Of a stretch of 22,624 nt of DNA, positions 6,357 to 6,744 are shown one piece after another (positions within the stretch are counted from its first letter, which is position 1; each line of letters opens with the position of its first letter). The stretch lies in UHGV virus genome UHGV-0204244, one strand, 5' to 3'. The DNA is from a virus. The notes under the pieces are model-generated. The model searched no databases. It was not told the DNA's origin and was given only the letters and a program-made list of their open reading frames with translations. Position numbers and translations under genes: made by a program.

Positions 6357-6477
6357 TTCATTGCTCCAGACGAATGATATGATGCAACCATGATGTGATT
6401 GCATACCGAAATGGTACTATTGAGTATTTATCCAGTAGGTTACGATGCCATTCCACCCAACTGGTGAGGCATCAAGG
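6357..6477. promoter_or_regulatory. Divergent intergenic control region between the tailspike and mnt; candidate promoters and Mnt operator
   Basis: 121-bp AT-rich spacer between two divergently transcribed genes. Contains a TTGCAT (6399-6404) / GAGTAT (6422-6427) candidate -35/-10 pair for mnt, an imperfect inverted repeat CCACC-caact-GGTGA (6452-6468), and ATGCAA...TTGCAT (6382-6404). Motif assignments are tentative. Confidence 0.35.
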
Positions 6478-6744
6478 ATGTACAGCAAATACGACGAGGC
6501 GCAGTTTCACTTGAGACTTCCGCATGAACTCCACGCGAAAATTAAGCAGCGTGCGAAGATGAATAACAGGTCGCTGAACTCAGAGATAATTGCAGCGATT
6601 GAAGAATCATTGGCTAAACAAAGCTCTGCATCTGTTTACATTGACGATGCAGAGCGTATGGCAGAACAACAATCTGATATGGTTAAGAAAATGGTTTTTG
6701 AAACGCTTAAGACCATGTATAGCAATAATAAAAAGGAAACATAG
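6478..6744 (+). CDS. mnt: Mnt-type ribbon-helix-helix repressor (Arc/MetJ superfamily)
   Basis: '...FHLRLPHELHAKIKQRAKMNNRSLNSEIIAAIEESLAK...DDAERMAEQQSDMVKKMVFETLKTMY' aligns along its length with remembered P22 Mnt (FNFRMPMEVREKLKFRAEANGRSMNSELLQIVQDALSK...NDAERLADEQSELVKKMVFDTLKDLY). Start chosen at ATG 6478, which has GAGG 9 nt upstream. Confidence 0.85.
   Translation: MYSKYDEAQFHLRLPHELHAKIKQRAKMNNRSLNSEIIAAIEESLAKQSSASVYIDDAERMAEQQSDMVKKMVFETLKTMYSNNKKET

What the first reader, a model, noticed from the sequence alone, without database searches (positions are those of the whole stretch)
6357..6744. Mnt-type repressor directly divergent from the tailspike gene, with no arc or ant
In P22 the immI region carries mnt, arc and ant, and Mnt represses the antirepressor promoter. 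Here a clear Mnt homolog is present, but the only gene divergent from it is the tailspike, 121 bp away. Mnt may therefore have been retained to control something else, such as tailspike expression from a Pant-like promoter in the lysogen or the downstream lipoprotein, or this is a remnant after loss of arc-ant. An imperfect palindrome CCACC-N5-GGTGA overlaps the mnt RBS region.
Basis: partly seen in the sequence, partly recalled or inferred. Interest (0 to 1): 0.6.

Follow-up and report, generated by a model that had tools for sequence, protein, structure and literature searches.

The report
Orphan Mnt repressor beside phage tailspike
This is a P22-like prophage that keeps the Mnt repressor, its promoter and its operator but has no antirepressor genes; the layout is common and already described in phages L, ST64T and Sf101, and what Mnt does there is still unknown.

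Summary
An 88-aa Mnt homolog (6478-6744, +) lies 121 bp from the tailspike start (6356, -), and the window has no arc, ant or sar.

The layout is not new. It occurs in phages Sf101, IME10, L/ST64T, ST160, Gally and VSe13, and in at least 106 complete E. coli genomes. It was described in 2008 and 2020 as an mnt-only "ant moron".

The part of the spacer nearest mnt is homologous to the P22 Omnt/Pmnt block. The operator homolog is ATACCGAAATGGTAC (6403-6417), 2 bp from the Pmnt -35. The P22 Pant promoter has decayed: the best leftward score is 5.7, against 15.5 for P22 Pant. A Pant-like tailspike promoter is therefore not supported.

Across 245 Mnt loci, the DNA-recognition strand, the operator sequence and the gene context partition cleanly. 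P22-type Mnt comes with ant. Two other Mnt types, each with its own operator, never do. The DNA-binding domain is under purifying selection (dN/dS 0.05-0.11), and the operator is unique in two complete relative genomes.

Best reading: a selected, probably self-regulating orphan Mnt cassette whose benefit is unknown. It is a known arrangement of modest interest.

The parts
4191..6356 (-). Tailspike gene with a P22-type head-binding N-terminal domain
   Evidence: Pfam Head_binding, 4.6e-65
6357..6381 (-). Tailspike 5' leader proximal part, with Shine-Dalgarno GGAG (reverse complement of 6364-6367). It is the only stretch of the spacer with nucleotide similarity to the region upstream of P22 gene 9.
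   Evidence: local alignment with P22
6382..6404 (-). Hairpin ATGCAAUCA-CAUCA-UGGUUGCAU in the late (tailspike) transcript: a 9-bp stem including one G.U pair. It is specific to the 121-bp spacer class (window, Sf101, IME10).
   Evidence: inverted repeat; 96.7% of cells paired across 10 variants, substitutions go to G.U or Watson-Crick pairs on the - strand, one double compensatory change, 11/500 shuffles as good. Folding energy alone is not significant.
6403..6417 (.). Homolog of the P22 Mnt operator (Omnt): ATACCGAAATGGTAC, dyad TACC-N5-GGTA
   Evidence: aligns column for column with P22 GGTCCACGGTGGACC and phage L/ST160 AGACCACGGTGGTCT; conserved in 90 loci, with a near-perfect dyad GTACCAAAATGGTAC in Buttiauxella locus L012; unique in the whole Sf101 genome.
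6420..6446 (+). Homolog of Pmnt: -35 TTGAGT (6420-6425), 15-bp spacer, -10 TACGAT (6441-6446); predicted start near 6453
   Evidence: aligned with P22 TTGAGA-17-TATCAT; score 7.5 here; 8.0-10.5 in relatives with a 17-bp spacer; P22 13.1
6425..6451 (-). Decayed remnant of P22 Pant: -35 position ATGGCA (6446-6451), -10 position TAAATA (6425-6430), 15-bp spacer
6444..6473 (+). It lies in the mnt leader and overlaps the Shine-Dalgarno GAGG at 6466-6469.
   Evidence: a CACC/GGUG stem at the predicted 5' end of the mnt mRNA
6478..6744 (+). mnt: N-terminal ribbon-helix-helix domain plus the C-terminal Mnt tetramerisation helix; recognition strand QFHLRL
   Evidence: dN/dS
6735..6757 (-). Hairpin GGAAAC...GUUUCC spanning the mnt stop codon. 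On the - strand it is followed by a U-rich run (6734-6724), so it looks like a terminator for the late-operon direction.
   Evidence: Terminators are annotated at the same place in epsilon34 and phage L. The consensus scan did not report it because the loop is 11 nt.
6815..7300 (+). Lipoprotein gene (lipobox LLVGC), PHROG 6067, function unknown. No + strand terminator was found between it and mnt, so read-through from Pmnt is possible.
7315..9162 (-). Homolog of P22 gene 16 (DNA transfer/ejection protein); the right-hand boundary of the 'ant moron'
   Evidence: PHROG 770, 3e-279

Best explanation
The locus is the mnt-only form of the P22-like 'ant moron', the variable block between gene 16 and the tailspike gene. 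It keeps one cassette: the Mnt operator homolog (6403-6417), the Pmnt promoter 2 bp to its right (6420-6446) and mnt (6478-6744). The arc, sar and ant genes, the Arc operator and a working Pant promoter are gone. Mnt, most likely a tetramer as in P22, is inferred to bind this single dyad. Because the dyad abuts the -35 of mnt's own promoter and no second site exists, its most likely direct effect is autoregulation of the prophage-expressed mnt transcript. In this window that transcript probably reads on into the lipoprotein gene. The tailspike gene would then be expressed only by read-through of the late operon, through the antisense of the lipoprotein gene and mnt, and not from an Mnt-controlled promoter. 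Shown here: the homology, the operator position, the covariation, the loss of Pant and the purifying selection. Inferred: actual binding, the sign of regulation and the selective benefit.
For: Identity as Mnt: Pfam Arc and Repressor_Mnt; PDB 1MNT and 1QEY.

Same layout elsewhere: Sf101, IME10, Gally, 720R6, VSe13, ST160 and phage L, and at least 106 complete E. coli genomes. The layout is described in PMC2629481 and PMC8022706.

Homology of the spacer to the P22 Omnt/Pmnt block, with the operator 2 bp from the -35 as in P22.

Partition of 245 loci:
- Mnt strand PHFNFRMP goes with operator GGTCCACsGTGGACC, and 83 of 84 loci carry ant.
- PQFNLRLP goes with AGACCACnGTGGTCT, and 0 of 69 carry arc or ant. 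The arms are constant while the centre base varies.
- AQFHLRLP goes with ATACCGAAATGGTAC, and 0 of 90 carry arc or ant.

The sequence immediately left of the operator differs among the spacer classes, yet the operator is always kept.

dN/dS of the DNA-binding domain is 0.05-0.11 between mnt-only lineages, and 88 of 91 ORFs are 84-88 aa long.

The operator is unique in the complete genomes of Sf101 and phage L. No Arc or Ant is found there.

On the same promoter scale, P22 Pant scores 15.5 and Pmnt 13.1. In every mnt-only class the best leftward score is <=5.7, while the Pmnt homolog scores 7.5-10.5.
Against: No binding or expression data exist for this Mnt type. The window operator is a poor dyad: 8 of 15 positions are self-complementary. 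In this spacer class the Pmnt spacer is only 15 bp, so the promoter may be weak. Two other rightward promoter candidates of similar score sit at the tailspike start. From my recollection of the Sauer-laboratory in vitro work, which I did not retrieve here, Mnt raises Pmnt activity in P22, and it does so through Pant; the local role of the operator once Pant is lost is therefore not obvious. Autoregulation alone also does not explain why the gene is kept. The 245 loci are the top hits of three searches, not a random sample, and a Q6-type Mnt next to an arc gene exists in a Phlomobacter contig (L018).
Confidence: 0.6

Rival explanations
1. Mnt controls the tailspike. It would either repress a promoter in the spacer that fires toward the tailspike in the lysogen, or act as a roadblock that tunes how much late-operon transcription reaches the tailspike gene.
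For: The operator lies about 47 bp upstream of the tailspike start codon, in the path of late transcription. PMC2629481 speculates that Mnt and Arc may influence read-through into the tailspike gene.
Against: No leftward sigma-70 candidate scores above 5.7 in any mnt-only class, and the Pant-homologous hexamers differ between classes, so they are not conserved. In lambdoid phages late transcription is antiterminated; that it would displace a small repressor is my inference and is not tested.
Confidence: 0.12
2. The cassette is a neutral remnant of a degraded immI region with no current function.
For: arc, ant, sar, the Arc operator and Pant are all gone. [quoted passage not shown] The window operator is only a weak dyad, and the Pmnt spacer is 15 bp.
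Against: dN/dS is 0.05-0.11 in the DNA-binding domain at saturated synonymous divergence, and nearly all ORFs are intact. In the phage L class the operator arms are perfectly kept while the centre base and both flanks vary. Two mnt-only specificity classes each have a matching operator.
Confidence: 0.1
3. The useful product is the transcript rather than (or as well as) the protein. A prophage-expressed RNA that starts beside the tailspike gene and runs antisense to the gene 16-tailspike junction would interfere with superinfecting relatives. Mnt would only keep that transcription steady.
For: In BTP1, a related phage with no moron, the prophage-expressed antisense RNA STnc6030 covers the same junction and excludes BTP1 (PMC7067206). 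The mnt and lipoprotein transcript has that position and direction, and no + strand terminator follows mnt.
Against: This does not explain strong selection on the Mnt DNA-binding residues or on the operator. The BTP1 junction shows no homology to Pmnt or Omnt. In phage L, terminators are annotated right after mnt.
Confidence: 0.1
4. Orphan Mnt protects the prophage in trans. It would repress the antirepressor promoter of incoming relatives that carry the same operator, which would prevent induction of the resident prophage.
For: This is how immI immunity works in P22 lysogens (my own knowledge of the P22 literature, including the Susskind and Botstein reviews; not retrieved here). Antirepressors can act on heterologous repressors.
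Against: None of the 84 ant-bearing loci carries the window-type or L-type operator; all have GGTCCAC-type operators. Of 116 viral contigs with the exact 15-mer, 67 have Mnt within 200 bp and one more is a contig-edge copy next to a tailspike start. None of the remaining 48 has a hit to the P22 Arc, P22/CUS-3 Ant or JEP4 Rha/KilA queries used.
Confidence: 0.08

Closest known systems
mnt-only 'ant moron' of Salmonella phages L, ST64T, ST104, ST160 and SE1 (Villafane et al. 2008, PMC2629481; Zaworski et al. 2020, PMC8022706)
   Same: Same gene order: gene 16, small cargo gene(s), mnt, then the tailspike divergent from mnt, with no arc or ant. Same retained operator-Pmnt block directly beside the tailspike leader.
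   Different: The Mnt recognition strand differs (PQFNLRLP there, AQFHLRLP here) and so does the operator (AGACCACnGTGGTCT there, ATACCGAAATGGTAC here). Mnt identity is 50-57%. The sequence left of the operator also differs: the P22 gene 9 upstream sequence there, a unique hairpin here.
Shigella phage Sf101 and coliphage IME10, and prophages of E. coli O26:H11 and many other E. coli
   Same: The 121-bp spacer is identical in Sf101 and differs by one base in IME10. Mnt is about 90% identical. The O26:H11 11368 prophage matches the whole 1.3-kb block, lipoprotein gene included, at 97% identity.
   Different: Sf101 and IME10 lack the lipoprotein gene, and their Mnt has a different C-terminal tail.
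Phage P22 immI region (mnt, Omnt, Pmnt/Pant, Oarc, arc, sar, ant)
   Same: Homologous Mnt with both domains. Homologous operator position and Pmnt hexamers. Same location between gene 16 and gene 9, on the strand opposite the late operon.
   Different: No arc, sar, ant, Arc operator or terminator after ant. Pant is decayed. The recognition residues are Gln/His/Arg where P22 has His6/Asn8/Arg10, and the operator sequence differs.
BTP1 prophage antisense RNA STnc6030 (Owen et al. 2020, PMC7067206)
   Same: [quoted passage not shown]
   Different: It is non-coding, no repressor or operator is involved, and there is no sequence homology. It is an analogy only.

Membership tests
Mnt repressor (P22 Mnt family) | N-terminal ribbon-helix-helix (Arc-like) DNA-binding domain | tested here: met
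   Pfam PF03869, 8.4e-15, residues 7-49; PDB 1MNT, 5.7e-19, residues 6-78
Mnt repressor (P22 Mnt family) | C-terminal Mnt-specific helix that forms the tetramer | tested here: met
   Pfam PF11423 Repressor_Mnt, 4e-12, residues 57-81; PDB 1QEY, 1.2e-6. Tetramer formation itself was not tested.
Mnt repressor (P22 Mnt family) | Encoded between the gene 16 and tailspike homologs, on the strand opposite the late operon | tested here: met
Mnt repressor (P22 Mnt family) | A dyad operator upstream of mnt, abutting the Pmnt -35 | tested here: met
   Alignment with the annotated P22 Omnt and Pmnt; class-specific conservation
Mnt repressor (P22 Mnt family) | Specific binding of the protein to that operator | not testable with these tools
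   Needs a gel-shift or footprint experiment. Only covariation of the recognition strand and the operator is available.
Complete immI immunity region (P22 type) | arc and ant genes divergent from mnt | tested here: not met
   No tblastn hit in the window at E<=1. 0 of 90 loci with this Mnt type have arc or ant.
Complete immI immunity region (P22 type) | A strong Pant promoter overlapped by Omnt | tested here: not met
   The homologous positions read ATGGCA-15-TAAATA. The best leftward score is 5.7, against 15.5 for P22 Pant. This is a sequence-based score only.
Complete immI immunity region (P22 type) | sar antisense RNA and an Arc operator | tested here: not met
   No Rfam hit in 6000-7400. 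The Arc operator sequence is not retained in the alignment.
mnt-only ant moron (phage L / ST64T type) | mnt retained with its operator and promoter, directly divergent from the tailspike gene, arc and ant absent | tested here: met
   literature

The most novel reading that the evidence does not exclude
Orphan Mnt may be a stable, selected module with a job unrelated to antirepressor control, rather than debris. At least two Mnt lineages have each evolved a private operator and are never found with arc or ant. Their single operator, beside the tailspike leader, would then serve an undescribed function. Possible functions are a self-sustaining prophage transcript that interferes with the late operon of incoming relatives, or fine control of tailspike supply.
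Probability: 0.3. Interest if true: 0.55.

Novelty: already known. Interest (0 to 1): 0.3.

Why it matters
P22 Mnt is a textbook repressor whose only known job is to silence the antirepressor gene. Many P22-like phages, including this prophage type found in over a hundred E. coli genomes (pathogenic O26:H11 among them), keep Mnt and its operator with nothing known to repress. The authors of the phage L genome paper left this point open. The comparison made here argues against simple decay and turns the question into an experiment: one protein, one 15-bp site and one promoter, in phages that can be grown (Sf101, IME10, L). The practical consequence is small unless the cassette turns out to affect superinfection or tailspike supply.

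Tried and rejected
1. Direct nucleotide alignment of the spacer with P22 found only about 18 bp before the tailspike start. The homology of the part nearest mnt appeared only in a multiple alignment with intermediate phages.

2. I first considered the inverted repeat at 6382-6404 as the operator. I rejected that because it is absent from other spacer classes that carry the same Mnt type, and because its variants keep pairing only as - strand RNA.

4. I looked for a second operator. None exists in the Sf101 or phage L genomes. The window sites at 15008 (2 mismatches, inside the coat gene) and at 8023 (inside gene 16) are within chance expectation.

5. A scan of viral contigs for the exact 15-mer gave many unrelated chance hits and no antirepressor context.

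6. Loci with a larger gap between mnt and the tailspike were checked for hidden arc or ant. They hold an HNH-AP2 homing endonuclease, an AT-rich replaced tailspike 5' region, or IS-like sequence interrupting the tailspike start (one locus, not characterised further).

7. The folding energy of the tailspike leader is not better than that of shuffled sequences (z = -0.86).

8. The BTP1 junction was checked for a Pmnt or Omnt remnant; none was found.

9. The literature search for Pmnt/Pant did not retrieve the original in vitro work, which is not in the library.

Full report
**What is in the window.** The window is the late region of a P22-like (Lederbergvirus) prophage, with the late genes on the - strand. 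It holds:
- an integrase (193-1371);
- an O-antigen acyltransferase;
- the tailspike (4191-6356, -), whose first 113 residues are the P22 head-binding domain;
- mnt (6478-6744, +);
- a lipoprotein gene (6815-7300, +);
- the gene 16 homolog (7315-9162, -), followed by the other virion genes.

The spacer between the tailspike and mnt is 6357-6477, which is 121 bp. The Mnt assignment is secure. Pfam Arc (8.4e-15) and Repressor_Mnt (4e-12) both match, and the protein aligns with the solved P22 Mnt N-terminal domain (1MNT, 5.7e-19) and tetramerisation helix (1QEY, 1.2e-6). No Arc, Ant, Rha/KilA-type antirepressor or sar RNA is detectable in the window.

**The layout is common and published.** The same arrangement, with mnt directly divergent from the tailspike, is found in sequenced phages Sf101, IME10, Gally, vB_EcoP-720R6, VSe13, ST160 and phage L. 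JEP4 has the same gene order with a longer, 323-bp spacer. The 1.3-kb block of this window is present over at least 80% of its length in 106 of 5,426 complete E. coli genomes, including O26:H11 str. 11368 at 97% identity. Villafane et al. 2008 named the variable block between gene 16 and the tailspike the "ant moron". They noted that ST64T, ST104 and a Paratyphi prophage carry only mnt plus one unknown gene (PMC2629481).

**Anatomy of the spacer.** A pairwise alignment with P22 found only the last ~18 bp before the tailspike start. A multiple alignment that includes the other mnt-only phages and the P22 and epsilon34 mnt-arc spacers shows more. The roughly 75 bp nearest mnt are homologous to the annotated P22 Omnt/Pmnt/Pant block.
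- **Operator.** P22 Omnt (GGTCCACGGTGGACC) aligns with AGACCACGGTGGTCT in phage L and ST160, with AGACCACTGTGGTCT in Gally, and with ATACCGAAATGGTAC at window 6403-6417.
- **Pmnt.** Two bases to the right lies the Pmnt -35: TTGAGT at 6420-6425, where P22 has TTGAGA. The -10 is TACGAT at 6441-6446, where P22 has TATCAT. In this spacer class a 2-bp deletion leaves a 15-bp promoter spacer.
- **Pant.** The positions of P22 Pant read ATGGCA-15-TAAATA. A simple sigma-70 weight-matrix score recovers P22 Pant (15.5) and Pmnt (13.1) as controls. In every mnt-only class the Pmnt homolog is the best promoter directed toward mnt (7.5-10.5, tied in the window with a 7.6 candidate at the tailspike start), and no leftward candidate exceeds 5.7.
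It lies downstream of the Pmnt -10, in the mnt leader. It can form a small stem at the predicted 5' end of the mRNA, next to the Shine-Dalgarno sequence.
- **Left of the operator.** The window, Sf101 and IME10 carry a unique ~35 bp that includes a hairpin at 6382-6404. The other classes carry the P22 gene 9 upstream sequence instead.

**Is the cassette under selection?** I collected 245 Mnt loci from annotated phages, IMG/VR viral contigs and GTDB genomes, then classified each by tblastn. Three things partition together.

| Mnt recognition strand | Operator | Loci | Context |
|---|---|---|---|
| RDDPHFNFRMP (P22 type) | GGTCCAC[C/G]GTGGACC | 84 | 83 carry ant (76 with arc as well) |
| RDDPQFNLRLP (phage L type) | AGACCACnGTGGTCT | 69 | none has arc or ant |
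| KYDEAQFHLRLP (window type) | ATACCGAAATGGTAC | 90 | none has arc or ant |

In the phage L class the operator arms stay constant while the centre base takes all four values. In the window class the best dyad is GTACCAAAATGGTAC, in a Buttiauxella genome.

Loci with a longer gap to the tailspike were checked for hidden arc or ant. They contain an HNH-AP2 homing endonuclease, an AT-rich replaced tailspike 5' end, or IS-like sequence interrupting the tailspike start (one locus, not characterised further). Between mnt-only lineages the DNA-binding domain has dN/dS of 0.05-0.11 at saturated synonymous divergence, and 88 of 91 ORFs are 84-88 aa long. The sequences immediately left of the operator are unrelated among the spacer classes, yet each keeps the operator. 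Together these results argue against a neutral remnant.

**What could Mnt control?**
- The operator occurs once in the complete genomes of Sf101 and phage L, and neither genome encodes Arc or Ant.
- Among 116 viral contigs holding the exact 15-mer, 67 have Mnt within 200 bp and one more is a contig-edge copy next to a tailspike start. None of the remaining 48 has a hit to the Arc, Ant, Rha or KilA queries I used. A distant antirepressor target, or trans-immunity against ant-bearing relatives with the same operator, therefore finds no support.
- The only element the operator touches is Pmnt itself. I conclude that the most likely direct action is autoregulation of the mnt transcript.
- No + strand terminator follows mnt in this window, so that transcript may continue into the lipoprotein gene. 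That cannot be the general role, because Sf101 and IME10 have no such gene.
- The sign of regulation and the benefit to the phage remain inferences.
- Remaining alternatives are a roadblock effect on late read-through into the tailspike, as speculated in PMC2629481, and a role for the antisense transcript like STnc6030 of BTP1 (PMC7067206). The BTP1 junction has no homology to this cassette.

**Limits.**
- No experiment exists for this Mnt type.
- The window operator is only weakly symmetric, and Pmnt has a short spacer here.
- Two further rightward promoter candidates sit at the tailspike start (CTGACA-17-AATGAT, and TGaTATGAT at 6375-6383).
- The locus sample consists of the top hits of three searches.
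- The early region of this prophage lies outside the window.

**Verdict.** The specific ideas of a Pant-like tailspike promoter, and of the RBS palindrome as the operator, are not supported. The arrangement is already known and widespread. The clean three-way partition of recognition strand, operator and gene context is a useful sharpening of an open but modest question.

Noticed in passing
window 6382-6404 (- strand): A 9-bp-stem hairpin lies in the tailspike mRNA leader, about 15 nt upstream of the Shine-Dalgarno sequence. The single 'mismatch' on the + strand is a G.U pair on the - strand. Natural variants change stem positions only to G.U or Watson-Crick pairs, and one divergent Escherichia locus has a double compensatory change. 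P22-type leaders have a different hairpin (CCGUAGC-CAU-GCUGCGG) in a similar place. Its function is unknown.
   Followed up: partly
window 6724-6757 (- strand): A hairpin spans the mnt stop codon and is followed by a U-rich run in the late-operon direction. It resembles the terminators annotated at the 3' end of mnt in epsilon34 and phage L. Late transcription would have to read through it to reach the tailspike gene.
   Followed up: partly
window 2373-3431 and 3452-4165 (+): The acyltransferase (AT3) and SGNH halves of an O-antigen acetyltransferase lie in two different reading frames 20 bp apart. Both match one 647-position PHROG family. This could be a frameshifted pseudogene, a sequencing error or a genuinely split gene.
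   Followed up: no
window 21374-21928 (-): A Rha-family ORF (Phage_pRha + ORF11CD3) lies between the lysis genes and the terminase genes, where P22 has rha. Some PHROG families it matches are labelled 'anti-repressor'. No Mnt-type operator lies upstream of it.
   Followed up: partly
L013 5330-5869; L117 5327-5869 (and 6 similar loci): In eight related loci an HNH_3 + AP2 homing-endonuclease ORF sits between a five-codon remnant of the original tailspike start (MSDIT) and a tailspike with a replaced N-terminus. The mnt-operator block next to it is untouched.
   Followed up: partly
L006 (JEP4) 3270-5930; L015, L019, L014: In JEP4 and in some Citrobacter, Buttiauxella and Serratia prophages, Rha- and KilA-type genes lie on the far side of mnt, on the late-operon strand. 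JEP4 also has a C2-like repressor gene there. This is a different candidate antirepressor module in the same moron, and it is not placed behind the Mnt operator.
   Followed up: no
window 6350-6383 (+): Two rightward promoter-like sites overlap the tailspike start codon: CTGACA-17-AATGAT, and an extended -10 TGaTATGAT. A start there would place the operator at about +13 to +27 of that transcript. CTGACA exists only because this tailspike begins MSD rather than MTD.
   Followed up: no
window 6815-7300 (+): A 161-aa lipoprotein (PHROG 6067, no Pfam match) occupies the position of P22 sieA. The same gene is found in Gally, 720R6, VSe13 and many E. coli prophages. It may be a lysogenic-conversion or exclusion factor; it has not been studied.
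   Followed up: no
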